A stretch of 64,000 nt of DNA from Escherichia coli (GTDB taxonomy: Bacteria > Pseudomonadota > Gammaproteobacteria > Enterobacterales > Enterobacteriaceae), in the NCBI RefSeq assembly GCF_036507355.1, contig NZ_AP027877.1; one strand, given 5' to 3'. Every line of letters begins with the position of its first letter. The stretch's first letter is position 1. Made by a program: the position numbers and the translations under genes. Positions 3,437 to 20,806 of the stretch are shown one piece after another. Under the pieces are notes generated by a model that was not told the DNA's origin, made no database searches, and saw nothing but the letters and a program-made list of their open reading frames with translations.

Positions 3437-4564
3437 TCATTTTGTGTCATAACTTTCTATGACCTGAGAAACCACTGCGTGTGATGTCGCTGCATTGTGA
3501 AAAGCGTAGCGACGGGTCGCCGTGAGTGAATGGTGATTTAGCAGATGGGAAGCGATTGCAATATCCCCGGTCGCCTGTAGTACCCGGGTGGCAAAGGTAC
3601 GGCGCAGGTCATGCATCCGCAGGTTATCAATGTTGGCATCCCGACAAATACGGGCAAAGGTTGCACGCGGATATGCCAGAGGGCGGGCATTGTCGGTTAG
3701 TTGTGGAAAAATGTAAGTTTTGCTGAGCATCAGGTCCTGCTGGCACTGGACAACTGCAATGGCTGGAAGTGCAAGTGGGCAGGTGAAAGGGTGTCCGGAC
3801 TTTGTATCAGGCAGTATGAGTTGATGCATATCCGGGTGCCAGTACTCCCATTTCAGGGTACATACCTCACCAATACGCATCCCCGTATAAAGAGCAAGCA
3901 ATATAGAATCAGCTGCCGGTGTTTGCAGCGCTGTTGCTGCGTTAATAAAGCGCGGGATTTCTGTCGCTGACAGTGTGCGATAGCGAATGTTATTTTCTTT
4001 CAGATAGCGGACATGTGACATCGGGGAATGTGTGATCCATCCAGCACGTACTGCCAGAGAGCATATTTTGGACAATATTGCGAGGATACGGTTTACTGTT
4101 GACGGACGTAATTTTTCCCGTAAGCCAGCAGCATATTGTTCTAGTTCTCCTGCCGTGATGTCGCGAAGTTGCCGCTTGCCCCAGAACGGGCGAACGTAGA
4201 GGTTGAGTTTTGACAACTCTGACTGAGGACTCTTTTTATACAACTGCAAATCCGGTAGCCACAGGTCATTGATGGCCTGTTCCACAGTGAATCGACGGGA
4301 CTGAACAGCAAGGCGATTTTTATCGGCAAGCAGGTTCATCACATGCTGACGGGCATCCTCAATGCAGAGATGAGGGAATTCACCCAGTGTTTCATATATA
4401 CGTTGATTTTTGATGGTGGCGCGAAAGGCCAGCGTGATCCGTTTTGGATATACCAGTGCACGCAGGTTTTGGCACTGAATATCACGGTATTCCTGACAAC
4501 CCGTGAGGGGATGTGGAAGTTGGTGAATTGATTTGTTGCTGAAACGCAGATCCAGAATAGGCAT
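3437..4564 (-). CDS. Tyrosine site-specific recombinase (phage-type integrase), 375 aa
   Basis: Catalytic signature read in the translation: R in YTGMRIGE, HDLRRTF (H-x-x-R), LLNHHS (H), TRRYAF (Y nucleophile). SD GGAG lies upstream of the ATG. Confidence 0.9.
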   Translation of the reverse strand: MPILDLRFSNKSIHQLPHPLTGCQEYRDIQCQNLRALVYPKRITLAFRATIKNQRIYETLGEFPHLCIEDARQHVMNLLADKNRLAVQSRRFTVEQAINDLWLPDLQLYKKSPQSELSKLNLYVRPFWGKRQLRDITAGELEQYAAGLREKLRPSTVNRILAILSKICSLAVRAGWITHSPMSHVRYLKENNIRYRTLSATEIPRFINAATALQTPAADSILLALYTGMRIGEVCTLKWEYWHPDMHQLILPDTKSGHPFTCPLALPAIAVVQCQQDLMLSKTYIFPQLTDNARPLAYPRATFARICRDANIDNLRMHDLRRTFATRVLQATGDIAIASHLLNHHSLTATRRYAFHNAATSHAVVSQVIESYDTK

Positions 4565-7778: not shown

Positions 7779-9302
7779 ATGAACGACAAAATCAGTCAGG
7801 ACACGATCAACAAAGCCCTGTGGGCCGCGTGTGATACGTTCCGTGGCACCATCAGTGCTGATACCTATAAAGACTTTATCCTTACCATGCTGTTCCTCAA
7901 GTACATTTCAGATGTCTGGCAGGATCACTACGACGAATATAAAGTGCAATATGGCGATGCGCCGGAACTGATTGAAGCGATGATGGCGAACGAGCGCTTC
8001 GTGTTGCCGAAAAGCGCCAGTTTCTATGCGTTGTACGAGCGACGTCATGAGCCGGGCAACGGTGAGCGTATCGATCAGGCGCTGCATGCGATTGAAGAAG
8101 CCAACGGCACCAAACTGAAAGATGCCGGGAAAAGTGTCTTCCAGGATATTTCGTTTAACACTGACCGTCTGGGCGAAGAAAAACAGAAGAACACCATCCT
8201 GCGTCAGTTGCTGGAAGACTTTGCCGGTGAAGATCTTAACCTGAAGCCAAGCCGTGTCGGTACGCTGGACGTTATCGGTAATGCTTACGAATATCTGATC
8301 AAAAACTTTGCTGCCAGCGGTGGGCAGAAAGCCGGGGAATTCTATACCCCGCCGGAAGTTTCGGACCTGATTGCTGAACTGCTCGATCCGCAACCGGGTG
8401 ATACCATCTGCGATCCGGCCTGTGGTTCGGGTTCATTGTTGATGAAGTGTGGGCGTAAAATTGTCTCCGGGCATGATAGTCGTAACTATGCATTGTTCGG
8501 TCAGGAAGCGATCGGTTCTACGTGGTCGCTGGCGAAAATGAATATGTTCCTGCACGGGGAAGACAACCATAAAATCGAGTGGGGCGATACCATTCGTAAC
8601 CCGAAGCTGCTCGATAAAAATGGCGACCTGATGCTGTTTGATATCGTGACCGCTAACCCACCGTTCAGCCTCGATAAGTGGGGCCATGACGAGGCCGAGA
8701 ACGATAAGTTTGGCCGTTTTCGTCGCGGTGTACCGCCGAAGACTAAAGGAGATTACGCTTTTATCTCGCATATGATCGAAACCCTGAAACCGGGAACTGG
8801 CCGTATGGGCGTAGTTGTGCCACACGGTGTGCTTTTCCGTGGCTCCAGCGAAGGTAAAATTCGCCAGAAACTGATCGACGAAAATTTGCTGGATGCGGTA
8901 ATTGGTCTGCCGGAAAAACTGTTCTACGGTACGGGGATTCCGGCTGCGATTCTGATTTTTAAAAAGCAGAAAGTTGATGACAAGGTGCTGTTTATCGATG
9001 CCAGCCGTGAATTCAAGGCAGGTAAAAACCAGAACCAGCTTAGCGAAGAAAACATTAAGAAAATCGTCAAGACCTACCGTGATGGCGATAACGTCGAGAA
9101 ATACGCCTATCTTGCCAGCCTGAAGGAAATTCAGGACAACGACTATAATCTCAATATCCCGCGCTATGTCGATACCTTTGAAGAAGAGGATGAGATTGAC
9201 CTGCTGGCGGTGCGAGCAGAACGCGAGCAACTGAAGGCGGAATTGGCGAAGCTGGAAACGGAGATGGCTGGATATTTGAAGGAGTTGGGTTATGGCTCGT
9301 GA
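7779..9302 (+). CDS. hsdM: Type I restriction-modification system, DNA methyltransferase subunit HsdM
   Basis: N6-adenine methylase motifs: DPACGSGSLL (AdoMet binding) and VTANPPFS (NPPF catalytic). The HsdM N-terminal domain pattern (LWAACDTFRG) is present. hsdS overlaps the 3' end by 11 nt. Confidence 0.95.
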   Translation: MNDKISQDTINKALWAACDTFRGTISADTYKDFILTMLFLKYISDVWQDHYDEYKVQYGDAPELIEAMMANERFVLPKSASFYALYERRHEPGNGERIDQALHAIEEANGTKLKDAGKSVFQDISFNTDRLGEEKQKNTILRQLLEDFAGEDLNLKPSRVGTLDVIGNAYEYLIKNFAASGGQKAGEFYTPPEVSDLIAELLDPQPGDTICDPACGSGSLLMKCGRKIVSGHDSRNYALFGQEAIGSTWSLAKMNMFLHGEDNHKIEWGDTIRNPKLLDKNGDLMLFDIVTANPPFSLDKWGHDEAENDKFGRFRRGVPPKTKGDYAFISHMIETLKPGTGRMGVVVPHGVLFRGSSEGKIRQKLIDENLLDAVIGLPEKLFYGTGIPAAILIFKKQKVDDKVLFIDASREFKAGKNQNQLSEENIKKIVKTYRDGDNVEKYAYLASLKEIQDNDYNLNIPRYVDTFEEEDEIDLLAVRAEREQLKAELAKLETEMAGYLKELGYGS

Positions 9303-10566
9303 TTCGCTTTACCCAGTGAGCGTTAAAGCTGGAAAACCGATCCTTGGAATGCTACCTACAGGATGGCAAAAGTTATCATTAGAAAAGTGCTTAAATATAG
9401 AGGCAAGAAAGGCATATATACAAGATAATCAAGAGTATGACTTAGTTACAGTAAAGCGCTCCAGAGGTGGCGTAATAAGACGTGAGCATCTTAAAGGAAA
9501 AGATATCTCCGTAAAAAGTCAATTCTATATTAAAGAAGGCGACTTTCTCATATCAAAACGACAAATTGTGCACGGTGCTTGCGGTCTTGTACCTAAAGAA
9601 CTTTCTGGCTCAATTGTATCGAATGAATATTGTGTGCTTACAGGGAAGTCCGGTTTTTATCTTCCTTATATGGAATTTCTATCGGAGTCTCTATATTTCC
9701 AGCAAACCTGCTTCCACTCTAGCATTGGTGTGCACATAGAGAAAATGATTTTTAAGTTAGATAGTTGGTTTAAGTGGCCATTTAATATCCCCCCACTGTC
9801 TGAACAAAAGAGAATCGTTAAAATCCTGTCAACCTGGGATAAGGCGATTTCGGTGACGGAAAAGCTTCTCACCAACAGTCAGCAGCAGAAAAAAGCCCTG
9901 ATGCAGCAATTGCTTACCGGGAAAAAACGCTTGCTGGATGAGAGGGGGGTGAGGTTTAGTGGGGAGTGGAAGAGAGTAAAACTGGGTGCGATAGCCGATA
10001 TGAACAGTGGAGGTACTCCGAAATCAACGGTTGAAGAGTATTATGGCGGGAATATCCCATGGGTATCTATTTCTGATATGACATCTAATGGAAAGTGGAT
10101 TGCTACAACTGAAAAATATCTGACTGAATTAGGATTGAACAGTTCATCCGCAAGAATATATCCAAAAAACTCGGTTCTTTATGCTATGTATGCTTCTATA
10201 GGTGAATGCAGCATTGCTGCTGTAAATTTAACATCTTCGCAGGCAATCTTGGGTATTAGACCAAAAGATTGTTTAAATTATGAGTTTTTATATTTCTATC
10301 TTACATCATTAAAAGAAAAAATAAAACTGCAAGGCCAGCAAGGTACACAGTCCAACCTAAACGCCGGAATGGTTAAAGAGTTTGAACTAGACTTACCCAG
10401 TATAAGAGAACAACAAAAAATCGCCGCCGTCCTGTCCGTCGCCGATGCCGAAATCTCCACGCTGGAGAAAAAACTCGCCTGCCTGAGAGATGAGAAAAAA
10501 GCCCTGATGCAACAGCTACTGACTGGCAAACGTCGTGTTAAGGTCGATGAGGCGGTTGCCGAATGA
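9292..10566 (+). CDS. hsdS: Type I R-M specificity subunit HsdS (two target-recognition domains)
   Basis: Two AT-rich variable halves are separated and followed by conserved helical repeats: QQKKALMQQLLTGKKRL and DEKKALMQQLLTGKRRV. Position is between hsdM and hsdR. Confidence 0.9.
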   Translation: MARDSLYPVSVKAGKPILGMLPTGWQKLSLEKCLNIEARKAYIQDNQEYDLVTVKRSRGGVIRREHLKGKDISVKSQFYIKEGDFLISKRQIVHGACGLVPKELSGSIVSNEYCVLTGKSGFYLPYMEFLSESLYFQQTCFHSSIGVHIEKMIFKLDSWFKWPFNIPPLSEQKRIVKILSTWDKAISVTEKLLTNSQQQKKALMQQLLTGKKRLLDERGVRFSGEWKRVKLGAIADMNSGGTPKSTVEEYYGGNIPWVSISDMTSNGKWIATTEKYLTELGLNSSSARIYPKNSVLYAMYASIGECSIAAVNLTSSQAILGIRPKDCLNYEFLYFYLTSLKEKIKLQGQQGTQSNLNAGMVKEFELDLPSIREQQKIAAVLSVADAEISTLEKKLACLRDEKKALMQQLLTGKRRVKVDEAVAE

Positions 10567-11246
10567 AACTGACGAAAAGCGGTCCACTGACTGACCGGGA
10601 AATCGACTGGCTGGAAGAAATATTAATGAAGTATGGAATGGATGATTCTGTACTCTGTTTCTCTGAGCTGGATGGATTGCTGACGGCGATTTTATCAGGT
10701 CCAAATATGGTTTCACCCAATATCTGGCTGAGTGCTATTTGGGGAGGAGGCGATTATCATCCGAAATGGTCATCTGAGAGAGAGATGGAGCGTTTTGTCA
10801 GTCTGTGTTTTCAGCATATGAACGATATCGCTGGTTGCCTTTATGACGCCCCTGAACTGTTTGAGCCGATTTTCAATGAGCGTGAGGTAAAGGGGGAAAA
10901 ATATACCATTGTGGAAGAGTGGTGTTTTGGTTATATGAAAGGAAAGTCACTGGATGACTGGTCTGGTCTTCCCGGTGAGTTACGGCCTTCTCTGGAAGTG
11001 ATCGCTCTTCATGGCGTGGAGAAGAATTTTCCTGTACTTGAGAAAATGACCAGAGAGCAGTTTGAGAAAAGTATTTCCCTTATTAAGCCTGCTGCACTGG
11101 CACTTTATCAGTACTGGTTGTCAGTGAGAATGTCAGAGGCATCATCCCGGCCTGTTCCAGTGAAGGGGGCAGAAAACATGCCCGGGCGAAATGACCCGTG
11201 TCCGTGTGGCAGCGGTAAAAAATTTAAGAAGTGCTGTCTGCATTGA
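10563..11246 (+). CDS. YecA-like (UPF0149) protein with C-terminal SEC-C metal-binding motif, embedded in the type I R-M operon
   Basis: Collinear with chromosomal YecA (20141-20806) along its whole length, with roughly half the residues identical by eye. The C-terminus [20 protein letters not shown] is a SEC-C zinc/iron-binding motif. Its ATG overlaps the hsdS stop (ATGA). Confidence 0.85.
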   Translation: MKLTKSGPLTDREIDWLEEILMKYGMDDSVLCFSELDGLLTAILSGPNMVSPNIWLSAIWGGGDYHPKWSSEREMERFVSLCFQHMNDIAGCLYDAPELFEPIFNEREVKGEKYTIVEEWCFGYMKGKSLDDWSGLPGELRPSLEVIALHGVEKNFPVLEKMTREQFEKSISLIKPAALALYQYWLSVRMSEASSRPVPVKGAENMPGRNDPCPCGSGKKFKKCCLH

Positions 11247-11295
11247 TGAATCTTCATGTGACCAGTAGCGAGTAGCGCCAGAAAGAAAAGGATTA

Positions 11296-14200
11296 ATGAT
11301 GAACCAGACGTACACGCCTAAATTCCAGGAAGAATACAGCGCCAAAATTCCGGCACTGACGTTACTGACCAGCCTCGGCTGGACGTTTTTATCTCCGAAA
11401 CAGATTATGGATTACCGGGGCTATAAACAGGATGAGGTGGTGCTGCGTCCGGTTCTGCGTGAAGAGCTGTCGAAGCGTTCCTTTATGGCGGGTGGCAAAA
11501 CCTGCCAGTTATCGGAAAAAGCACTGGATAACCTGATATCACAGGTCTGTTCTCCGGCGCTGAATGAAGGGCTGCTCAAAGCCAATGAACGGATGTATAA
11601 CCATCTGCTCTACGGTATCGCCGTCACGGAGTTTGTCGATGGCAAGAAGGTGAACCCCACCATTGCGCTGATCGACTGGGAACATCCGGAAAGTAACCAG
11701 TTCCATTTTACCGAAGAATTTACGGTATTGCGGTCAGGCGGTGTCGAAACCCGCAGGCCGGATATTGTGTGTTTTGTGAATGGTATCCCGCTGGCCGTCA
11801 TTGAAGCGAAAAGCCCGGCGGGTCACGGCAAGAAAGGGCCAACCATTGACGAAGGGATATCCCAGAGTATCCGCAATCAGCTCAACGACGAAATCCCGCA
11901 GCTGTTTGCTTACAGCCAGATATTACTGTCGATTAACGGGCATGACGGGCGCTACGGTACCTGTCATACACCAATGAAATTCTGGGCGGCATGGCGCGAA
12001 GAAGATATTACTTACGCGCAGATGTATGCGCTGCGCAACCATAAGTTATCGACTGAACAAATTCATGCGTTGTTTGATGATCGTCCTTCAGTCGATCTCA
12101 AATGGTATCAACAGTTAATCGATGGGGGGGAACTGGCAGTCAGCGGGCAGGATAAGCTGCTCATCAGTCTGCTTTCACCGGAACGTCTGCTGGAGATGAC
12201 CCGCTTCTTCACCCTGTTTGATAAAAAAACCGGAAAAATTGTTGCCCGCTATCAGCAGGTGTTCGGTATTAAAAGACTGCTGGAACGCATCAGTACCCGC
12301 AGACCAGACGGGGGCAGGGAAGGTGGGGTGATCTGGCATACCACGGGGTCAGGTAAATCTTACACCATGGTATTCCTCAGCAAGGCGCTGATTCTTCATG
12401 ACAGCCTGAAGCAGTGTCGTATTGTGGTGGTGACGGACCGCGTGGACCTTGAAGGGCAGCTCAGCGGCACTTTTGTCTCTGGTGGCGAACTGGCAGGGAA
12501 GGATGATAAGGCCAAAGCGATGGCAACCTCAGGTCAGAAGCTGGCACAGCAGATTGGCTCTGGTAAAGAACGTATAATCTTTACCCTTATCCAGAAATTT
12601 AACTCAGCGACAAAATTGCCTGAATGCGTCAACACCAGCCCCGACATCATCGTTCTGATTGATGAAGGACACCGTAGCCAGGGTGGTGAGAACCATGTGC
12701 GAATGAAACTGGCACTGCCGAACGCCGCCTTTGTGGCATTTACTGGTACGCCATTGCTAAAAGAAGATAAGACCACCAATAAATTCGGGCCGATTGTCCA
12801 CGCTTATACCATGCAGCGAGCGGTAGAAGATAAAGCCGTTACACCTTTGCTGTATGAAGAACGTATTCCCGACCTTGAGGTTAACGATCGGGCAATAGAT
12901 GCCTGGTTTGATCGTATTACCGATGGGTTAAGCGAAGCGCAAAAAGCCGACCTTAAGCGTAAATATGCCCGTAAAGGTGAGGTTTATAGTGCAGATGATC
13001 GCATCCGTCTGATCGCACTCGATATCGCCACGCACTTCTCGAAGAATATTGATGAGGGGCTGAAAGGCCAGCTTGCCTGCGACAGCAAGATTTCCGCCAT
13101 CAAATATAAAAAGTATCTTGATGAAGCCGGGTTGTTTGAGTCAGCAGTAGTTATCAGCCCGCCGGATACCCGGGAAGGGAATACCGAAGTGGATGAAAGC
13201 AAACTGCCGGAAGTGACGAAATGGTGGAAGGATAATGTCGGCACGCAGGATGAGTCTGTGTATACCCGTAATATCATCAGTCGTTTCGATACCGATGAGA
13301 AGCTCAAATTGCTGATAGTCGTTGATAAACTGCTCACCGGGTTTGATGAGCCGAAGAATACCGTGCTGTATATCGACAAGCCGCTTAAGTCCCACAACCT
13401 TATCCAGGCGATTGCGCGGGTGAACCGACTGCATCCACTAAAAAAGTTCGGTCTGCTGATTGATTATCGCGGTATTCTGGCTGAGCTGGACACGACTATC
13501 GGCAAATATCAGGACCTCGCCTCCCGAACTCAGGGCGGATACGATATCAAAGATATTGACGGGCTGTACAGCGCCATGAGCTCTGAATACAAGCGCCTGC
13601 CGCATCTGTATAACCAGCTGTGGGCCATATTTGCCGGTGTTAAAAACAAAAATGATACTGAGCAGTTACGTGCGGTACTGGTGCCTAAAATGGAAGAACG
13701 TGACGGAGAGATGGTCGATATCCATCAGAAAACCCGTGATGATTTCTTCGAGGCGTTAACGGCCTTTGCCGGATGCCTGAAAGTGGCACTGCAGTCCGCT
13801 ACCTTCTTCACCGACAAGAGCTTTACGGAACAAGACCGAAATCTCTATAAAGAAACCGTAAAACAGATGTCCAGCCTGCGCCAGTGGGCGATGCAGGTAA
13901 GTGGAGAGCAGGTCAATTATGACGACTACGCTGAGCAGGTGAAAAAACTGCTGGATAAGCATGTCACCGGCGTTGAGGTTCGTGAACCGGATGGCGTGTA
14001 TGAAGTCGGTAAAATGGGCAAGAGCGAAAAGCCCGAAGAGTGGGACAACAATAAAACCCGCAATGAAACCGACATCATTAAAACCCGCGTGACGAAGATG
14101 ATTGAGCAGGAATTGCGTGATGACCCGTATGCTCAGGAGGCATTTTCAAAACTCCTGCGTATGGCTATCGAAGAGGCTGAAAAACTGTTTGACCATCCGC

Positions 14201-14583
14201 TGAAACAGTACCTTTTGTTCCGTGAATTTGAAGAACAGGTTGAAGCCCGTAAGCTCAGCGATATCCCGGATGCACTGGCGGTAAACAAGCATGCTCAGGC
14301 GTATTACGGTGTATTTAAAAAAGAGCTACCTGAGGTTTTTGCGGTAAACGACGTTCAGGTGCAGGATAAGTGGACCAAGCTGGCTTTTGAAGTGGACAAC
14401 ATTATCGTCAAAGCGGTGGCAGAAAACTCCCTGAACCCCCAGGACATTGAGAAAGTCGTTAAGACAAGTCTGCTACCACTGCTGTTTACGGCCTGCCGGG
14501 AAATTGGTGCCGGAATGAATCAGGTTAACCGTATTGTGGAAACCATCATCCAGATACTGCGCGTTGGTTTGATGAAATCATGA
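11296..14583 (+). CDS. hsdR: Type I R-M restriction/translocase subunit HsdR (1095 aa)
   Basis: N-terminal PD-(D/E)xK nuclease motif (RPDIVCFVNGIPLAVIEAKSP). SF2 helicase motif I is TTGSGKSYT and motif II is VLIDEGHRSQ. Operon context with hsdM/hsdS. Confidence 0.95.
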   Translation: MMNQTYTPKFQEEYSAKIPALTLLTSLGWTFLSPKQIMDYRGYKQDEVVLRPVLREELSKRSFMAGGKTCQLSEKALDNLISQVCSPALNEGLLKANERMYNHLLYGIAVTEFVDGKKVNPTIALIDWEHPESNQFHFTEEFTVLRSGGVETRRPDIVCFVNGIPLAVIEAKSPAGHGKKGPTIDEGISQSIRNQLNDEIPQLFAYSQILLSINGHDGRYGTCHTPMKFWAAWREEDITYAQMYALRNHKLSTEQIHALFDDRPSVDLKWYQQLIDGGELAVSGQDKLLISLLSPERLLEMTRFFTLFDKKTGKIVARYQQVFGIKRLLERISTRRPDGGREGGVIWHTTGSGKSYTMVFLSKALILHDSLKQCRIVVVTDRVDLEGQLSGTFVSGGELAGKDDKAKAMATSGQKLAQQIGSGKERIIFTLIQKFNSATKLPECVNTSPDIIVLIDEGHRSQGGENHVRMKLALPNAAFVAFTGTPLLKEDKTTNKFGPIVHAYTMQRAVEDKAVTPLLYEERIPDLEVNDRAIDAWFDRITDGLSEAQKADLKRKYARKGEVYSADDRIRLIALDIATHFSKNIDEGLKGQLACDSKISAIKYKKYLDEAGLFESAVVISPPDTREGNTEVDESKLPEVTKWWKDNVGTQDESVYTRNIISRFDTDEKLKLLIVVDKLLTGFDEPKNTVLYIDKPLKSHNLIQAIARVNRLHPLKKFGLLIDYRGILAELDTTIGKYQDLASRTQGGYDIKDIDGLYSAMSSEYKRLPHLYNQLWAIFAGVKNKNDTEQLRAVLVPKMEERDGEMVDIHQKTRDDFFEALTAFAGCLKVALQSATFFTDKSFTEQDRNLYKETVKQMSSLRQWAMQVSGEQVNYDDYAEQVKKLLDKHVTGVEVREPDGVYEVGKMGKSEKPEEWDNNKTRNETDIIKTRVTKMIEQELRDDPYAQEAFSKLLRMAIEEAEKLFDHPLKQYLLFREFEEQVEARKLSDIPDALAVNKHAQAYYGVFKKELPEVFAVNDVQVQDKWTKLAFEVDNIIVKAVAENSLNPQDIEKVVKTSLLPLLFTACREIGAGMNQVNRIVETIIQILRVGLMKS

Positions 14584-15335
14584 GTGAAAAAGAATCGCCA
14601 TCAATGAAAGCGTTACGCATTGTCTATGGTGATGATGTCATCACCGTACAGTGTGTTCCGCGTCAGGTCGTAAAGGGCAGGGTGCTCATCAAGGTTTATC
14701 CGGACTGCCGGGTTGTGGCCTCTGTACCGCCTGAAACACCGGAGCACGAGGTATTGTCTGCGCTGAAAAAAAGAGGGCGCTGGATATACCAGCAACTGCG
14801 TGATTTCAGGGAGCAACAGACACACATTGTTCCGCGTCAGTATGTCAGCGGAGAAAGCCATTATTATCTCGGTAAGCAATATCAGTTGAAAGTGACAGAA
14901 GACGCTACTGTGCCGCAACGAGTGAAAATGTTGCGTGGGCGTCTGGAAGTGACTGTCAGACACAAATCGGCAGAAAAGATTAAAGCCTTGCTGGCTGAAT
15001 GGTATCGGGAACGTGCCAGAGATGTTTTTCAGCGCAGGCTTGATTTACTGATTCCGCAGACCCTTTGGGTCAGTGAGCGTCCTCCGATACGTCTGCGGGC
15101 GATGCAAACGCAATGGGGCAACTGTTCAGCAAAAGGCTGTCTGACCCTGAATCCATGGCTGGTTAAGGCATCCTCAGAATGTATCGATTATGTTTTGCTA
15201 CATGAGTTATGCCATGTGGCTGAGCACAACCACAGCGAGGAGTTTTACCGTCTGATGGGGCAGGTTATGCCTGGGTGGGAAAAGGTCAAGAAACGACTGG
15301 ATGGGATGGCTGGGATGTTGTTGGCTGATATGTAA
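14580..15335 (+). CDS. M48/DUF45 (YgjP-like) zinc metallopeptidase coupled to hsdR
   Basis: HExxH motif in YVLLHELCHVAEHNHSEEFY, followed by a WxxxK tail typical of DUF45. The ATG overlaps the hsdR stop (ATGA). Confidence 0.85.
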   Translation: MSEKESPSMKALRIVYGDDVITVQCVPRQVVKGRVLIKVYPDCRVVASVPPETPEHEVLSALKKRGRWIYQQLRDFREQQTHIVPRQYVSGESHYYLGKQYQLKVTEDATVPQRVKMLRGRLEVTVRHKSAEKIKALLAEWYRERARDVFQRRLDLLIPQTLWVSERPPIRLRAMQTQWGNCSAKGCLTLNPWLVKASSECIDYVLLHELCHVAEHNHSEEFYRLMGQVMPGWEKVKKRLDGMAGMLLADM

Positions 15336-15393
15336 CTTATCAATATGAGTTCTTAAGGGTTTGGTCAGTCTCGTTAATGTAGGGAGTATAATA

Positions 15394-17232
15394 ATGAGTA
15401 AGTTAGATAATAAAATTGAAGCACGCCATCGTAATTTGTTTGATGTTCTAAATGCGCAAAAATATACCGTTGATTACTTTCAGCGCGAGTATAGCTGGGG
15501 TGAGAAACATATTGAAGAGTTGGTTACAGACTTAACATCTGCGTTTCTCAATGAATACACCGTCGGTGATTCTCGGGAGCAGGGTGAAAACTACAATAAT
15601 TATTACTTAGGACCATTTGTTGTGAGTAGTAAAGATGGGAAACGGAGTATTATTGATGGTCAGCAACGACTGACTTCATTAACTTTATTTCTAATTTACC
15701 TCCATAACCTTCAGAAAGAACTTAAATATGAAGAGAAAATAGAATCAATGATTTTCTCCGAGTTACGTGGCAGCAAATCATTCAATATAGTAGTTGAAGA
15801 CAGAATACCTTGCATGGAAGCATTGTTTAATTTTGGTAGCTATAGTTTAGTTGATGGGGATGATGAGTCAACCCATAACATGGTGGAGAGATATCAGAAT
15901 ATCACAGATGCTTTTCCTGATGAATTAAAAGGTCAGGCTTTTCCTTTTTTTATCGACTGGCTTAAGTATAACGTTATTATGGTTGAGATAGTTGCCTATT
16001 CAGATGAAAACGCATATACCATCTTTGAGACTATGAATGACCGAGGATTAAATCTTACTCCGTCCGAAATGCTTAAAGGTTTTTTACTTTCACGCTTTCA
16101 TCAGGGAGATAAACGCCAAAAGGTAAATGAACTCTGGAAAAAAGCGATGATGGATTTAAAAAACTATGATAAAGATGAAGACCAACGTTTTTTCCAGTCA
16201 TGGTTGCGTGCTCAATATGCTGATACAATACGCCCGGGTAAAGCTGGTTCAAAAAATGAAGACTTTGAAAAAATAGGTACGCGTTTTCATAGCTGGGTTA
16301 GAGATAATCTTCAGGCGGTGGGATTGGACCCAGATAATGGTGAGACATTCGAACGATTTATACAAAAAAACTTTTTGTTTTATTTGAATGCCTATACACA
16401 AATACTGAATGCTGAGAGAGCATTAACGCACCAACTGGAATATGTATTTTATATCCACCATTGGGGTATTGCACCTACTTTAAGTTTCCCTTTGATGTTG
16501 GCTCCATTAAATGTAGGTGACAGTCCTGATGCTGTGATAGCCAAAATAAACCTGGTGGCGCGCTATATTGAAACATTTGTTGTTCGTCGTTCTGTTAATT
16601 TCCGAAAATTCTCTGCCAGTTCTATTCGTTACACAATGTACAGTCTTGTTAAAGAAATTCGTGGTAAAAGTATTGAAGAATTAAAAGATTTGTTATCTAA
16701 GAAGTTATCCGAAATGCCAGATACTTTTGCAGGAATGGAAGAGTTTCGTCTCCATGGTCAAAACTATCGTTTTGTGAAGTTTTTGCTTTCTCGTATAACT
16801 GCGTGGGTTGAGCAGCAAGCCGGAATGAGTACAACCTTCATTACATATTATCAGCCAGAACACGGTAAGCCATTTGAAGTCGAGCATATTTGGGCCGATA
16901 AATATGAACGTTACTCTGATGAGTTTGAACAAGAGCACGAATTTAACAATTACAGAAATCGCTTAGGTGATTTGGTTTTATTACCTAGAGGCTCAAACCA
17001 GTCATATGGTGATTTGTGTTACGATCAAAAGCAACCTCATTACATCAAAGAGAATCTCCTGGCTAAATCGTTATGCCCATTGGCATATATGAATAACCCT
17101 AATTTCAATCAGTTGAGAAATGTATTCGGATTGCCTTTCAAACCACATGATTCATTTAAAAAACAAGATGTCGATGAACGACAGTCTTTGTATAAAATAA
17201 TTTGTGAGAATATTTGGGACCATAATTTATAG
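15394..17232 (+). CDS. DUF262/DUF1524 two-domain nuclease, GmrSD-like type IV restriction enzyme
   Basis: The N-terminal DUF262 signature IIDGQQRLTSL is present. The C-terminal His-Me finger-like part reads FEVEHIWADK ... NRLGDLVLLPRGSNQSYGD. I chose ATG 15394 (SD AGGGAG 8 nt upstream) over the TTG at 15361 used in the ORF track. Confidence 0.85.
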   Translation: MSKLDNKIEARHRNLFDVLNAQKYTVDYFQREYSWGEKHIEELVTDLTSAFLNEYTVGDSREQGENYNNYYLGPFVVSSKDGKRSIIDGQQRLTSLTLFLIYLHNLQKELKYEEKIESMIFSELRGSKSFNIVVEDRIPCMEALFNFGSYSLVDGDDESTHNMVERYQNITDAFPDELKGQAFPFFIDWLKYNVIMVEIVAYSDENAYTIFETMNDRGLNLTPSEMLKGFLLSRFHQGDKRQKVNELWKKAMMDLKNYDKDEDQRFFQSWLRAQYADTIRPGKAGSKNEDFEKIGTRFHSWVRDNLQAVGLDPDNGETFERFIQKNFLFYLNAYTQILNAERALTHQLEYVFYIHHWGIAPTLSFPLMLAPLNVGDSPDAVIAKINLVARYIETFVVRRSVNFRKFSASSIRYTMYSLVKEIRGKSIEELKDLLSKKLSEMPDTFAGMEEFRLHGQNYRFVKFLLSRITAWVEQQAGMSTTFITYYQPEHGKPFEVEHIWADKYERYSDEFEQEHEFNNYRNRLGDLVLLPRGSNQSYGDLCYDQKQPHYIKENLLAKSLCPLAYMNNPNFNQLRNVFGLPFKPHDSFKKQDVDERQSLYKIICENIWDHNL

Positions 17233-17290
17233 CAAAGTTAGGGTGTTAATTAATCTGTAATGGCATCATGATTTTTAAAAGGAGGTTGAA

Positions 17291-18418
17291 TTGCGTTCTG
17301 AAACGTTTTTTGTCAAATTTATTGAACAACTGAAAGGTATTTCGGTTGAGGATGATGTTGAATTCAATTTTTTTGAATTGGGTGGTTCCGGATATCTCGA
17401 AAATCCAACTACGGATTTGATGGCTTTGTTTATGGGAGCCCAGAAAATGGTGCCGCCATGGTTGCTCAAAGCATTGCTATGTTGCCTGGATGATTCCCTC
17501 GATGTTGATGAAATTGATTTCACTTCTCTGGAGCTAATGAGAGAGGCCCGAACAGAAGATGGGAAATATATTGATATTCTTATCAGACATGATGAATTCA
17601 TTATAGGTATTGAGCATAAAGTTCTGGCTGATACATATAATCCTTTTCCCAGCTATGTAAGTCTCATTGATAGTTACGGCGGCAACAATCAAAAACTATT
17701 TCGCTGTATATTAAAGCCTGACGGTAACAGCGCTAAAGGCGTAGACGGTTGGCAACTGATCAATTATTCACTGCTGCTGGAAACCGCCATTCGACGTCTG
17801 GGGTTGGAGATGATGAATCAAGAGTTCAGCAAGTGGACTGTTTTTTATCAGGAGTTTTTAAGTCATCTTAAAAAATTGAGTGAGGTTAGTATGGATAAGG
17901 TATCTGATAAAAATGTGGAGTTTGTCACTGAAAATTTCTCAGCTTTGATAAAATCGGTTCAACTGCTGGAAATGTACCAAAATGCTATCACCGAGGAAGC
18001 TAAATCGGTTGTCTCAGAGGTATTGCCTGATATTCATATTGCAACAGGTATTAATAACTGGAAGGGTTACTATAAAGCAATTCATCTGATGCCGGGATGC
18101 TGGGGGCAAGGTAAAACAGGAATTACGTTAGTTTATCGCCCTTCAGAGGATGGACGAGATGAAGCTGAGTTCTACGTATATGGATGGATACATTCAGATG
18201 ATTACCCTGAAGTTAATGCACTAAAAGAAGAAATAAGAGTTGCTTTAAGTGCTGGAGATTTCATTCCAACAGCTAGCCCTGAGGACTATGAAGTATCAAT
18301 TACTGGGAAGGGGAAAGTGCTTGAACTGAGTTTTTGGGGGAATACGAGAAGCAAAAAAGATGCACTGGTTCTTCTTAAGGATATGACTAAGTGGATGGAC
18401 TCAAAAATAAGAACATAA
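17291..18418 (+). CDS. PD-(D/E)xK nuclease superfamily protein (PDDEXK_4-like), 375 aa
   Basis: The N-terminal FNFFELGGSGYLENPTTDLMALF pattern is followed by EDGKYIDILIRHDEFIIGIEHKV (D ... E-x-K core). TTG start with a strong SD (AAGGAGG, 5 nt spacing). Confidence 0.65.
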   Translation: MRSETFFVKFIEQLKGISVEDDVEFNFFELGGSGYLENPTTDLMALFMGAQKMVPPWLLKALLCCLDDSLDVDEIDFTSLELMREARTEDGKYIDILIRHDEFIIGIEHKVLADTYNPFPSYVSLIDSYGGNNQKLFRCILKPDGNSAKGVDGWQLINYSLLLETAIRRLGLEMMNQEFSKWTVFYQEFLSHLKKLSEVSMDKVSDKNVEFVTENFSALIKSVQLLEMYQNAITEEAKSVVSEVLPDIHIATGINNWKGYYKAIHLMPGCWGQGKTGITLVYRPSEDGRDEAEFYVYGWIHSDDYPEVNALKEEIRVALSAGDFIPTASPEDYEVSITGKGKVLELSFWGNTRSKKDALVLLKDMTKWMDSKIRT

Positions 18419-18522
18419 AGTAATATGACTGAGTGATGACGATCTTTTTTAAATTGTGGATTATTAGGCTGGTAATTGAAGCGCCGAATAGACAGATATT
18501 GGAATAAAAGGAGAATATTCAA

Positions 18523-19704
18523 ATGATTTATCAGTGTGATACTTGCAGTAGAACGACTTTTGAGGTTAATTGTCCCTGGTGTAGTGGAGTTTCGCCTGTA
18601 AAAACGTCTGCATGGGGTTCAGCATCATCGACCGCACAAGCAATAGGCATACAACGTATGACACCATTGAATCCATCGTTTTATCCCGAATTTCAGTATC
18701 GTTCAAAGGGTGTTCTAAAAGATCTATTTGGGAAAAAGAAAGAGCAAACTCAGCTTAATCAATTGCTTGAAAATGTTCTCAAAAAATACTCCAGTTTAAA
18801 AGATCCATATTTTACTAACTTCATTTACACTTCCAGATTCTCACATAATAATAAATCGGAAGCAGATTACTCAACAGATAATGGTACATACTCCGAATTA
18901 CAACTTTTCCGTGAGGTGTTGGTCAGAAAAGGGTTCAATGAGCTTGAGCAGTTACCTGAGCTATTAGATAAATTACTCCTTACCACGTCATTTAACGCTC
19001 TTTATTATGGTTTCGCTAAGGAAGTTAAACGGCATATTAAATCCACACTTACTGAATCCTTGAAGTCATGGATTGAGGAAGCGGGTACCACTTTTAGGGC
19101 AGATCTTTCATTGTTTCTATTCTATATATGGAGCAATAAAATAGAGTTCTCATCAGTAGAGTTCAATGAAAAAGCGGAGGCTACGCCTGGTGTTCCTTTA
19201 GTTTCATTTGATGAAGTTAAAAAATACTTAGCTGTGTGCGAACATATTTATTTTGATATTCTGGTTGATAGATTAGCTACACGGCTCGAACATTTTAACC
19301 CTAACAAATTCGTCACCATGTATTTAGTTGATGCAATGGACGGTTTCCAGTTTGAAGATTTCCTTGTGGAAGTATTCCAGACTATGGGCTATGACGTCAA
19401 AGAAACCAAGAGAACGCAAGATCAGGGGGCAGATCTCTTCGTCACTCGATTTGGTAAGGATATGGTTATTCAGGCGAAAAATTATTCTGGTTCTGTAGGT
19501 AACTCGGCGGTGCAGCAGGTGATCTCTGCTAAAACATTCTATGGTTGTGATGAGGCGATGGTTGTGACTAATTCCTACTTCACACGCTCTGCCAAAGAAT
19601 TAGCTGAATCAGCCTTGGTACGTTTGATCGACAGGGATGAACTGCAAAAGTATCTGGATGATTACAATCAGAAGATAATTGAAGATTTCCAGTCAAACTC
19701 GTAA
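18523..19704 (+). CDS. Mrr-like restriction endonuclease with N-terminal zinc ribbon (393 aa)
   Basis: N-terminus has CDTC-x11-CPWC (4-Cys ribbon). The C-terminal Mrr_cat-type domain reads DGFQFEDFLVEVFQTMGYDV...QGADLFV...VIQAKNYSGSVG...VVTNSYFT. SD AAGGAG lies upstream. Confidence 0.8.
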   Translation: MIYQCDTCSRTTFEVNCPWCSGVSPVKTSAWGSASSTAQAIGIQRMTPLNPSFYPEFQYRSKGVLKDLFGKKKEQTQLNQLLENVLKKYSSLKDPYFTNFIYTSRFSHNNKSEADYSTDNGTYSELQLFREVLVRKGFNELEQLPELLDKLLLTTSFNALYYGFAKEVKRHIKSTLTESLKSWIEEAGTTFRADLSLFLFYIWSNKIEFSSVEFNEKAEATPGVPLVSFDEVKKYLAVCEHIYFDILVDRLATRLEHFNPNKFVTMYLVDAMDGFQFEDFLVEVFQTMGYDVKETKRTQDQGADLFVTRFGKDMVIQAKNYSGSVGNSAVQQVISAKTFYGCDEAMVVTNSYFTRSAKELAESALVRLIDRDELQKYLDDYNQKIIEDFQSNS

Positions 19705-20140: not shown

Positions 20141-20806
20141 ATGAAAACGGGACCGTTAAACGAAAGTGAGTTGGAATGGCTGGACGATATTCTGACCAAA
20201 TACAACACTGACCACGCCATCCTTGATGTGGCGGAGCTGGACGGTTTATTGACGGCGGTGTTGAGTTCTCCGCAAGAGATTGAACCGGCACAGTGGCTGG
20301 TTGCCGTGTGGGGTGGGGCTGACTATGTGCCGCGCTGGGCGTCAGAGAAAGAGATGACGCGCTTTATGAACCTGGCTTTTCAACATATGGCCGATACCGC
20401 AGAGCGTCTGAACGAATTCCCGGAGCAGTTTGAGCCGTTATTCGGCTTGCGAGAAGTTGATGGCAGCGAGCTGACGATTGTTGAGGAGTGGTGCTTTGGC
20501 TATATGCGGGGCGTGGCACTTTCTGACTGGTCAACATTGCCCGATTCGTTAAAACCAGCGCTGGAGGCGATAGCGCTGCACGGTACTGAGGAAAACTTCG
20601 AGCGGGTAGAGAAGATGTCGCCAGAAGCGTTTGAAGAGAGCGTAGATGCCATTCGACTGGCGGCGCTTGATCTACATGCGTACTGGATGGCGCATCCGCA
20701 GGAAAAAGCTGTTCAGCAACCGATCATAGCAGAAGAGAAACCGGGGCGTAACGATCCTTGCCCGTGCGGTAGTGGTAAGAAATTTAAGCAGTGCTGCCTG
20801 CATTAA
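20141..20806 (+). CDS. yecA: YecA, UPF0149 family protein with SEC-C metal-binding domain
   Basis: Translation matches recalled K-12 YecA ([21 protein letters not shown] ... [20 protein letters not shown]). Synteny next to leuZ and tyrP. Confidence 0.95.

What the first reader, a model, noticed from the sequence alone, without database searches (positions are those of the whole stretch)
14580..15335. DUF45/M48 zinc metallopeptidase translationally coupled to HsdR
Seen: the ATG of a 251-aa HExxH protein (LLHELCHVAEHNH) overlaps the hsdR stop codon. Established: YgjP-like DUF45 peptidase genes are frequently annotated next to type I R-M genes, but their role is not experimentally settled as far as I know. 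Separately, HsdR proteolysis by ClpXP underlies restriction alleviation in classic systems. Inference: a dedicated peptidase made 1:1 with HsdR may control HsdR levels or activate an effector after phage interference with the R-M complex.
Basis: partly seen in the sequence, partly recalled or inferred. Interest (0 to 1): 0.4.

Follow-up and report, generated by a model that had tools for sequence, protein, structure and literature searches.

The report
Zinc peptidase gene coupled to HsdR
A small zinc-hydrolase gene of unknown role sits directly behind the DNA-cutting subunit gene of a type I restriction system; the pairing recurs in bacteria, an archaeon and a phage and is already annotated and published, but nobody has tested what the enzyme does.

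Summary

The hsdR link is strong. hsdR lies directly upstream in 80 of 80 species-representative loci. It is also adjacent in every informative distant homologue checked (25-54% identity), including an archaeon, cyanobacteria and a gut phage. In complete E. coli genomes the two genes co-occur (552 versus 540 of 5426).

The "M48" label is loose. The 1:1 stoichiometry claim has no support. "Activating an effector" is disfavoured, because the cargo between hsdS and hsdR varies or is absent.

The arrangement is already published (EPEC RptR-RMS-DarTG-M48 island, NAR 2025) without a functional test. My best guess, which is inferred and not shown, is a self-encoded protease that controls or clears HsdR complexes, giving restriction alleviation that does not depend on host ClpXP.

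The parts
7779..9302 (+). hsdM (type I methyltransferase subunit), first gene of the operon
   Evidence: Pfam N6_Mtase E 4e-107 and HsdM_N
9292..10566 (+). hsdS (specificity subunit); overlaps hsdM by 11 nt
   Evidence: Pfam Methylase_S, two stretches
10563..11246 (+). YecA-like protein (UPF0149 + SEC-C). It is the variable cargo in the hsdS-hsdR slot and is not a conserved partner of the peptidase
   Evidence: Pfam and NCBIfam hits, PADLOC PDC-S12. Present in the slot in only 14 of 71 related loci. 57% identical to the chromosomal yecA at 20141-20806
11296..14583 (+). hsdR (1095 aa; nuclease-translocase subunit)
   Evidence: Pfam HSDR_N, SWI2_SNF2 and T1R_D3-like; TIGR00348 hsdR; PADLOC REase_I 1363 bits. 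Only distantly related to the EcoR124I and EcoKI HsdR
14580..14583 (+). ATGA: peptidase start codon overlapping the hsdR stop codon
   Evidence: Read directly from the sequence. Tight juxtaposition is conserved in 76 of 80 related loci
14580..15335 (+). YgjP-like/DUF45 zinc metallohydrolase gene (251 aa), the last conserved gene of the hsd module
   Evidence: PF01863 E 3e-58, profile positions 3-205 of 207. 99% identical RefSeq cluster named 'M48 family metallopeptidase'. AF2 pLDDT 95.7
14607..15059 (+). N-terminal domain (about residues 10-160): two four-strand-plus-long-helix modules, basic, with no solved structural relative
15072..15332 (+). Catalytic zincin domain (about residues 165-251) of minigluzincin type
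15201..15233 (+). Metal-binding and catalytic motif H208-E209-x-x-H212-x5-H218
   Evidence: H208, E209, H212, H218 and W179 are the only invariant columns in 127 representatives at 31-60% identity

Best explanation
SHOWN.
- The ORF is an intact gene for a soluble, basic protein of 251 aa. It belongs to the YgjP-like (Pfam PF01863, formerly DUF45) family of zinc metallohydrolases.
- It has a minigluzincin-type catalytic domain with an invariant HExxHx5H site. In front of that is a family-specific N-terminal domain of about 150 aa.
- It is the conserved last gene of a widespread type I restriction-modification layout: hsdM-hsdS-[variable cargo]-hsdR-DUF45. It starts on or within a few bases of the hsdR stop codon.
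- The hsdR-DUF45 pair stays together in Proteobacteria, cyanobacteria, Firmicutes, a haloarchaeon and a gut phage, while everything around it changes.

INFERRED.
- The enzyme works on the restriction complex itself. Most likely it is a latent protease, made in small amounts by reinitiation after HsdR.
- I propose that it cleaves HsdR when HsdR is locked on DNA. That happens during translocation from unmodified sites on the host's own chromosome, or in dead-end complexes after cleavage.
- That would give this mobile type I family its own restriction alleviation and complex clearance, independent of the host. ClpXP plays this role for the classical IA and IB enzymes, which lack the gene.
- The basic N-terminal domain would supply binding to DNA or to HsdR.
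For: Identity and active site:
- PF01863, 197.6 bits against a cut-off of 26.
- The only invariant columns in 127 divergent relatives are W179, H208, E209, H212 and H218.

Linkage to hsdR:
- hsdR is directly upstream in 80 of 80 species-representative loci. In 76 of 80 every possible start lies within 60 nt of the hsdR stop.
- Distant homologues (25-54% identity) lie directly behind hsdR in Acetobacter, Phyllobacterium, Sinorhizobium, Vibrio, Enterobacter, an E. coli IncY plasmid, Haloquadratum and a gut phage.
- Two plasmids keep an intact DUF45 gene behind a truncated hsdR remnant, and in a Paenibacillus locus the two genes are convergent neighbours.
- In complete E. coli genomes hsdR of this family is in 552 and DUF45 in 540 of 5426.

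Specificity for HsdR rather than the cargo: the slot is 18-6520 nt with changing content.

Basic charge: all 127 relatives have pI above 8, with a median of 9.9.

Context from the literature:
- HsdR is the known proteolytic control point in types IA and IB. The ClpXP-independent mechanism of EcoR124I (type IC) is described as unresolved (PMC3874165 and PMC12707154).
- The K-12 EcoKI locus has no DUF45.
- The nearest characterised folds after the minigluzincins are Spartan and Wss1. PMC7213743 describes Spartan as cleaving proteins cross-linked to DNA.
Against: - There is no direct evidence for peptidase activity, for HsdR as the substrate, or for physical contact.
- There were no HsdR-DUF45 fusions among the best 150 of 22,109 family clusters.
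- The similarity to Spartan and Wss1 is confined to the generic zincin core, and their DNA-binding modules are absent.
- In ArdC, a zincin protein that acts on type I systems, protease activity was dispensable (PMC7213743).
- From memory, the only activity reported for E. coli YgjP is weak UTP hydrolysis.
- In a sample of 8 divergent plasmid HsdR genes, 5 had no DUF45 next to them, so the gene is not generally required.
- I found no HsdR sequence feature that tracks DUF45. The C-terminal RVGL tail is clade-specific, and the HsdR C-domain was found in 450 plasmid records against 567 for DUF45.
Confidence: 0.35

Rival explanations
1. Counter-counter-defence. The basic protease binds and degrades acidic DNA-mimic anti-restriction proteins of the Ocr or ArdA type that jam the HsdM2S core, and so restores restriction.
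For: All family members are strongly basic. The gene travels with a restriction system that DNA mimics are known to target (literature quoted in PMC12429846). It sits in defence islands next to other anti-phage genes.
Against: The gene is tied to hsdR, not to hsdM or hsdS, which are what the mimics bind. When cargo separates the modules, the gene stays with hsdR. T7 was still only partly restricted by the EPEC island that contains the gene (PMC12255303). There is no experimental hint for this role.
Confidence: 0.12
2. Trigger of a linked effector, following the PrrC logic. When a phage disables the restriction complex, the peptidase is released or activated, and it cleaves an antitoxin or pro-toxin encoded in the hsdS-hsdR slot (here the YecA-like protein).
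For: The slot often holds toxins or abortive-infection modules: AbiE with Fic (L095), DarTG2 (PMC12255303) and nucleases. The closest solved relatives were deposited as metallopeptidase zymogens (PDB titles), so a latent, triggered enzyme is conceivable.
Against: The cargo is hypervariable, and YecA-like is present in only 14 of 71 loci. Loci with no cargo still carry DUF45 (L088, L096, and 4-6 of 71). Cargo-bearing type I loci without DUF45 also exist. One conserved protease is unlikely to have co-evolved substrates in unrelated cargo proteins.
Confidence: 0.08
3. Assembly or maturation factor, or a non-proteolytic role. The protein trims or chaperones newly made HsdR, or acts as a structural or regulatory subunit, or hydrolyses a small molecule such as a nucleotide.
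Against: Strict invariance of the HExxHx5H residues over 127 relatives at 31-60% identity argues that catalysis is selected. The closest relatives are bona fide peptidases. K-12 YgjP is only 25% identical over 60 residues and lacks the N-terminal domain, so its reported activity transfers poorly.
Confidence: 0.15
4. Passenger gene. The gene is co-transcribed with hsdR for historical reasons and has a housekeeping or selfish function unrelated to restriction.
For: Two plasmids retain an intact DUF45 ORF after hsdR was truncated (L086, L089). PADLOC 2.0 and NCBIfam have no model for it. Many type I systems do without it.
Against: Adjacency has been kept from Proteobacteria to a haloarchaeon and a phage while both proteins diverged to about 25-35% identity and the flanks were replaced. 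The two genes co-occur almost one to one in E. coli. This is hard to explain without a functional link.
Confidence: 0.05

Closest known systems
EPEC E2348/69 'RRDM' defence island (RptR-HsdM-HsdS-DarT-DarG-HsdR-M48 metallopeptidase; NAR 2025, PMC12255303)
   Same: The layout is the same: hsdM, hsdS, cargo in the slot, hsdR, then a predicted Zn metallopeptidase as the last gene. The paper's neighbourhood analysis also shows the peptidase conserved next to type I genes.
   Different: The cargo here is a YecA-like protein, not DarTG2. There is no rptR-like regulator upstream of hsdM in the window. The paper did not dissect the peptidase's role. I could not measure sequence identity to the EPEC protein.
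Minigluzincins (proabylysin 4JIU, projannalysin 4JIX, selecase 4QHF)
   Different: They are archaeal single-domain proteins of about 105-110 aa with no known partner. This protein has an extra 150-aa N-terminal domain and a fixed genomic partner. From memory, they are latent through a C-terminal tail or through oligomerisation. Whether that applies here could not be tested.
SprT/Spartan and Wss1 (WLM) proteases that repair DNA-protein crosslinks
   Different: Neither Pfam model reaches its gathering score. The zinc-binding/DNA-binding subdomain of Spartan and the SUMO/ubiquitin modules of Wss1 are absent. DNA dependence is untested.
ClpXP-mediated restriction alleviation of type IA/IB HsdR
   Same: In both, proteolysis of HsdR is the proposed control point, and that control protects the host chromosome and allows establishment in new hosts (PMC3874165, PMC12707154, PMC4231737).
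   Different: ClpXP is a host ATP-dependent housekeeping protease encoded elsewhere. Here the candidate is a small ATP-independent zincin encoded in the operon. There is no experimental link yet.
ArdC (R388 anti-restriction protein with a metalloprotease domain)
   Different: ArdC is encoded by the invader and acts against restriction. It has an ssDNA-binding domain, its third ligand is Glu, and its protease activity was not needed for function.
E. coli K-12 YgjP (the protein that gives PF01863 its name)
   Same: It belongs to the same Pfam family and has the same HExxHx5H motif (HELAHLKEKEH).
   Different: It is 167 aa and matches only profile positions 146-200. Identity is 25% over 60 residues. 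It lies between rlmG and ygjQ, not near any hsd gene.

Membership tests
Pfam PF01863 YgjP-like (DUF45) metallopeptidase domain | Full-length match to the family profile above the gathering score | tested here: met
   197.6 bits against a cut-off of 26; residues 35-241 match profile positions 3-205 of 207
Pfam PF01863 YgjP-like (DUF45) metallopeptidase domain | Intact HExxH zinc site with a third ligand | tested here: met
   H208, E209, H212 and H218 are present and invariant in 127 relatives
Pfam PF01863 YgjP-like (DUF45) metallopeptidase domain | Peptidase (or any hydrolase) activity | not testable with these tools
   Needs biochemistry. The literature searches found no paper that characterises an hsdR-linked member
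MEROPS/Pfam M48 (Ste24/HtpX/BepA) peptidases, the name used by NCBI | Match to the Peptidase_M48 profile | tested here: not met
   Only YgjP-like, WLM and SprT-like were reported at E <= 0.001. There was no NCBIfam hit
MEROPS/Pfam M48 (Ste24/HtpX/BepA) peptidases, the name used by NCBI | Closest structural relatives are M48 members; Glu as third zinc ligand (the ligand rule is from my own knowledge) | tested here: not met
Minigluzincins (proabylysin/projannalysin/selecase) | Compact zincin catalytic fold of about 100 residues with HExxH and a downstream His | tested here: met
Minigluzincins (proabylysin/projannalysin/selecase) | Stand-alone single-domain protein of about 105-110 aa | tested here: not met
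   The protein is 251 aa, with an extra N-terminal domain that has no solved relative
Minigluzincins (proabylysin/projannalysin/selecase) | Latency through the C-terminal tail or through oligomerisation | not testable with these tools
Beyond L240 the tail is poorly conserved
SprT-like / WLM (Spartan, Wss1) proteases | Profile match above the gathering score | tested here: not met
   WLM 25.6 bits against 26.0; SprT-like 23.5 against 25.6. Both are just below threshold and cover only the motif region
SprT-like / WLM (Spartan, Wss1) proteases | DNA-binding module and DNA-dependent proteolysis | tested here: inconclusive
   Nothing matches the Spartan zinc-binding subdomain, and the alignments cover only the catalytic core. 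The protein is basic (pI 9.4, family median 9.9), which permits DNA binding but does not show it
Type I restriction-modification operon (accessory component) | Co-directional hsdM, hsdS and hsdR with the gene inside the same gene string | tested here: met
   No + strand terminator-like site was found between hsdR and the gene or just after it
Type I restriction-modification operon (accessory component) | Conserved adjacency to hsdR across lineages | tested here: met
   80 of 80 loci, all 10 informative DUF45 plasmid hits, 3 further DUF45-bearing loci reached from HsdR hits, and a phage
Type I restriction-modification operon (accessory component) | Translational coupling to hsdR, and a requirement for restriction or modification | not testable with these tools
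   Only the overlap geometry is visible. Five of 8 sampled divergent HsdR genes lack the gene, so it is not universally required

The most novel reading that the evidence does not exclude
The DUF45 protein is an unrecognised fourth component of a large share of type I restriction systems in bacteria, archaea and phages. It would be a self-encoded, DNA- or HsdR-docked zincin that destroys its own HsdR when the enzyme attacks unmodified host DNA or stalls after cleavage. This would make it the ClpXP-independent restriction-alleviation factor that lets these mobile systems enter naive hosts safely.
Probability: 0.25. Interest if true: 0.7.

Novelty: already known. Interest (0 to 1): 0.38.

Why it matters
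Type I enzymes are dangerous to their own host whenever sites are unmethylated. This happens on entry into a new cell and after DNA damage or recombination. For the classical IA and IB families the safeguard is ClpXP degradation of HsdR. For EcoR124I (type IC) the reviews call the mechanism unresolved.

A conserved zinc hydrolase gene sits directly behind hsdR in about 10% of complete E. coli genomes. It is also on some 350 Klebsiella conjugative plasmids and in an archaeon and a phage. That makes it an obvious and cheap candidate to test for this role.

If it controls HsdR, it would explain how these very mobile systems establish themselves. It would add a component to defence-system annotation, since PADLOC has no model for it. 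It might also give a handle for switching type I restriction off in hard-to-transform strains.

If it has no phenotype, a very common "M48/SprT" annotation next to hsdR can be treated as an accessory of unknown role. At present the gene itself is ordinary and already annotated. Only its function is open.

Tried and rejected
- The first AlphaFold run used 13 close homologues and gave pLDDT 65. I discarded it. A 127-sequence alignment gave 95.7.
- The afdb_sample library was unavailable. BFVD gave only weak hits to SprT-like catalytic cores and no full-length viral relative.
- PADLOC and NCBIfam have no model for the protein.
- I looked for HsdR-DUF45 fusions as evidence of contact. There were none among the best 150 of 22,109 clusters; all are about 200-320 aa.
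- I looked for an HsdR feature that tracks DUF45. The conserved C-terminal ...QITRVGL tail holds only in the close clade and is lost in HsdRs at 26-35% identity that still have DUF45.
- The HsdR C-terminal 346 aa is detectable in 450 plasmid records against 567 for DUF45, so there is no clean one-to-one domain correlation.
- I tested internal duplication of the N-terminal domain. The result is only a weak 22-column hhalign match, P 3e-4.
- Assignment to a type I family stayed unresolved. HsdR matches the EcoR124I HsdR (type IC) only over the motor domain (E 4e-32) and barely matches EcoKI. A Klebsiella paper calls the plasmid-borne Klebsiella systems type IC, but I could not verify that it means this system.
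- Titheradge 2001 and Makarova 2011 are not held in the library. My memory that COG1451 was listed there as linked to type I systems is therefore unverified.
- The literature searches for DUF45, YgjP, COG1451, M48 or SprT together with hsdR found no functional study.
- Rejected readings: true M48 membership; 1:1 stoichiometry deduced from the overlap; a dedicated activator of the YecA-like protein.
Full report
**1. The observation**

The window carries a co-directional gene string:
- hsdM, 7779-9302
- hsdS, 9292-10566
- a YecA-like gene, 10563-11246
- hsdR, 11296-14583
- the ORF in question, 14580-15335

The sequence reads ...AAATC-ATG-A-GTG..., so the ATG at 14580 overlaps the hsdR TGA at 14581-14583. 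The product is 251 aa and contains LLHELCHVAEHNH at residues 206-218. RefSeq annotates the same start in a 98.7% identical E. coli chromosome and calls the product "M48 family metallopeptidase".

A second in-frame ATG (M9, 14604) lies 20 nt after the stop. The 83%-identical sister clade has no such internal start and uses a TAATG overlap, so the upstream ATG is probably real. Either start keeps the two genes tightly juxtaposed.

**2. Is it more than chance?**

A 4-nt overlap in one genome is commonplace (my own knowledge). The pairing is far too conserved to be chance.
- A scan of one genome per species returned 80 loci. These are mostly Gammaproteobacteria, with some Betaproteobacteria such as Nitrosomonas, Iodobacter and Deefgea. 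The DUF45 protein is 60-98% identical in them.
- All 80 have an hsdR homologue immediately upstream on the same strand.
- In 69 of 80 loci every possible start lies within 25 nt of the hsdR stop, and in 76 of 80 within 60 nt.
- 56 of 80 have an overlapping start candidate, and 27 have an ATG in the ATGA or TAATG configuration.
- The three real exceptions have gaps of 83, 726 and 1463 nt.

Distant homologues found by tblastn in plasmids (25-54% identity) show the same arrangement.
- They come from Acetobacter, Enterobacter, Phyllobacterium, an E. coli IncY plasmid and the archaeon Haloquadratum walsbyi. The spacing runs from an 8-nt overlap to an 8-nt gap.
- For Neotabrizicola and Oscillatoria the match itself overlaps an annotated HsdR.
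- Two plasmids that seemed to lack hsdR carry a truncated hsdR 3' remnant abutting an intact DUF45 ORF. In a Paenibacillus replicon the two genes are convergent neighbours about 100 nt apart.
- A human-gut phage genome carries hsdS-hsdR-DUF45 with an 8-nt overlap.

In the 5426 complete E. coli genomes, hsdR of this family is present in 552 and the DUF45 gene in 540. The same pair, about 97-99% identical at protein level, sits on some 350 Klebsiella plasmids, most of them conjugative.

**3. What the protein is**

*Family.* Pfam gives a full-length match to YgjP-like, formerly DUF45 (PF01863, E 3e-58). WLM and SprT-like hits fall just below threshold, and there is no Peptidase_M48 hit. NCBIfam and PADLOC 2.0 have no model for it. 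The only solved relatives by sequence are the archaeal proabylysin (E 5.5e-6) and, very weakly, projannalysin.

*Family size.* The family is very large: 22,109 clusters at 50% identity with E <= 1e-3. The best 150 are almost all stand-alone proteins of about 200-320 aa apart from a few truncated fragments, and none is fused to HsdR. In 127 representatives at 31-60% identity, the only invariant columns are W179, H208, E209, H212 and H218. That is an HExxHx5H metal site under strict selection.

*Structure.* With that alignment AlphaFold gives pLDDT 95.7.
- The N-terminal 150 residues form two modules of four strands plus a long helix. They have no solved relative and show only a faint sign of internal duplication.
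- Every family member is basic, with a median pI of 9.9.

*Relation to YgjP.* E. coli K-12 YgjP gives the family its name, yet it is only 25% identical over 60 residues. It matches only the last quarter of the Pfam model and lies nowhere near hsd genes.

In summary, this is a minigluzincin-type zincin with a family-specific N-terminal domain. "M48" and "SprT" are convenience labels, not memberships.

**4. The surroundings**

The window is an E. coli island between a tyrosine integrase (3437-4564, minus strand) and the chromosomal yecA. Downstream of the peptidase lie a GmrSD-type enzyme, a PD-(D/E)XK protein (PADLOC candidate PDC-S26) and an Mrr-like nuclease.

Across related loci the hsdM-hsdS pair and the hsdR-DUF45 pair are stable. 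The stretch between hsdS and hsdR is not: it is 18-6520 nt long, with a median of about 2 kb. Its contents include:
- YecA-like protein, in 14 of 71 loci
- a cold-shock-domain protein
- AAA ATPases and GTPases
- GIY-YIG and PD-(D/E)XK nucleases
- DUF262 proteins
- Fic plus AbiE

Some loci have nothing in the slot.

A small sample of divergent plasmid HsdR genes gave DUF45 behind 3 of 8. Slot cargo also occurred in four of the five loci that lack DUF45. DUF45 is therefore an optional partner of particular HsdR lineages. It is not tied to any cargo, and it is not needed by type I systems in general. The K-12 EcoKI locus (type IA) has none.

**5. What is already known**

A 2025 paper describes the EPEC "RRDM" island as RptR-HsdM-HsdS-DarT-DarG-HsdR-"M48-family Zn metallopeptidase". 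It shows that the whole island protects against phages, and its neighbourhood analysis shows the peptidase conserved next to type I genes. All mentions of M48 in the text are descriptive, and no mutant of it is reported (PMC12255303).

Two large reviews of type I and host-dependent restriction do not mention any peptidase partner. They state that ClpXP degrades HsdR in types IA and IB, and that the ClpXP-independent alleviation of EcoR124I remains unresolved (PMC3874165 and PMC12707154).

ArdC of plasmid R388 is a precedent and also a warning. It is a Spartan/IrrE-like zincin that counteracts HsdRMS, yet its protease activity was dispensable (PMC7213743).

I found no functional study of an hsdR-linked DUF45 protein in ten full-text searches.

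**6. How it most likely works**

Shown:
- an intact, strongly conserved metallohydrolase site
- a peptidase-type fold
- basic charge
- fixed adjacency to hsdR, usually touching it, while all other neighbours change

Inferred: the enzyme acts on the restriction complex, and specifically on HsdR. The most economical model is a latent protease made at low level by reinitiation after HsdR. It would cleave HsdR locked on DNA, either while HsdR translocates from unmodified host sites or after cleavage. That would be a host-independent version of ClpXP-mediated restriction alleviation, useful to a system that lives on plasmids, islands and phages. I put this at about 0.35.

Rivals:
- degradation of acidic DNA-mimic anti-restriction proteins (0.12)
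- a trigger of slot-encoded effectors (0.08), disfavoured by the variable or absent cargo
- a maturation, structural or small-molecule role (0.15)
- a mere passenger (0.05)

The remainder is "something else".

There is no clear Shine-Dalgarno sequence in the 15 nt before the ATG, which suggests less DUF45 than HsdR, if anything.

**7. Verdict**

The finding is real and correctly described, apart from the M48 label and the stoichiometry claim. The gene and its association with hsdR are already annotated and published, so the object itself is not new. What remains open, and cheaply testable, is its function.

My added value here is fourfold:
- the breadth of the linkage (bacteria, an archaeon, a phage; 80 of 80 loci; about 10% of complete E. 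coli genomes)
- the structural assignment (minigluzincin core plus a novel N-terminal domain, HExxHx5H)
- the uncoupling from slot cargo
- the observation that the gene follows HsdR rather than HsdM or HsdS

Interest is moderate.

Noticed in passing
window 10563-11246 and 20141-20806: The island's slot gene encodes a YecA-like protein (PADLOC candidate PDC-S12). It is 57% identical to the chromosomal yecA, which lies right at the island's edge, so the island carries a diverged copy of the gene it sits next to.
   Followed up: partly
window 10566-11296; loci L082-L084, L093-L101: The stretch between hsdS and hsdR is a hypervariable cargo slot of 18-6520 nt. Its contents across genomes include YecA-like, cold-shock-domain, AAA ATPase, GTPase, GIY-YIG, DUF3800, DUF262 and PD-(D/E)XK proteins and Fic plus AbiE. 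Cargo also occurs in type I loci that lack the peptidase.
   Followed up: partly
L086:1890-3280 and L089:5886-7732: Two plasmids keep an intact DUF45 ORF directly behind a truncated 3' remnant of hsdR. The peptidase gene has outlived its partner, or the deletions are recent.
   Followed up: partly
L090:7001-10540: In a Paenibacillus megaplasmid, hsdR and the DUF45 gene are convergent and about 100 nt apart, not co-directional. Adjacency is kept without any translational coupling.
   Followed up: no
L102:1691-6726 (phage PV036457.1): A 64-kb human-gut phage genome carries hsdS, hsdR (with a HindI-like C-terminal domain) and a DUF45 gene that overlaps hsdR by 8 nt. This is a phage-borne type I system with the same accessory gene.
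   Followed up: partly
window 14607-15059 (protein residues 10-160): The N-terminal half of the peptidase consists of two similar modules of four strands plus a long helix. It has no solved structural relative. hhalign aligns residues 42-64 with 119-140 (P 3e-4), which hints at an internal duplication.
   Followed up: partly
window 15361-19704: Three further nuclease-type defence genes follow the peptidase directly on the same strand: a GmrSD-like DUF262 protein, a PDDEXK_4 protein (PADLOC PDC-S26), and a 393-aa Mrr-like protein whose catalytic domain is C-terminal. The E. coli RM14721 locus (98.7% identical over the hsdM-to-Mrr stretch) has an extra SIR2 gene between Mrr and yecA that the window lacks.
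   Followed up: no
L091:7961-8464 (E. coli K-12 ygjP): The protein that gives Pfam PF01863 its name matches only profile positions 146-200 of 207. The 'YgjP-like' model is in effect a model of the roughly 240-aa hsdR-linked form.
   Followed up: yes
window 14613-14963 (- strand): A 116-aa GTG-initiated ORF lies antisense inside the peptidase gene. It is not annotated in the near-identical E. coli locus L001 and is probably spurious.
   Followed up: no
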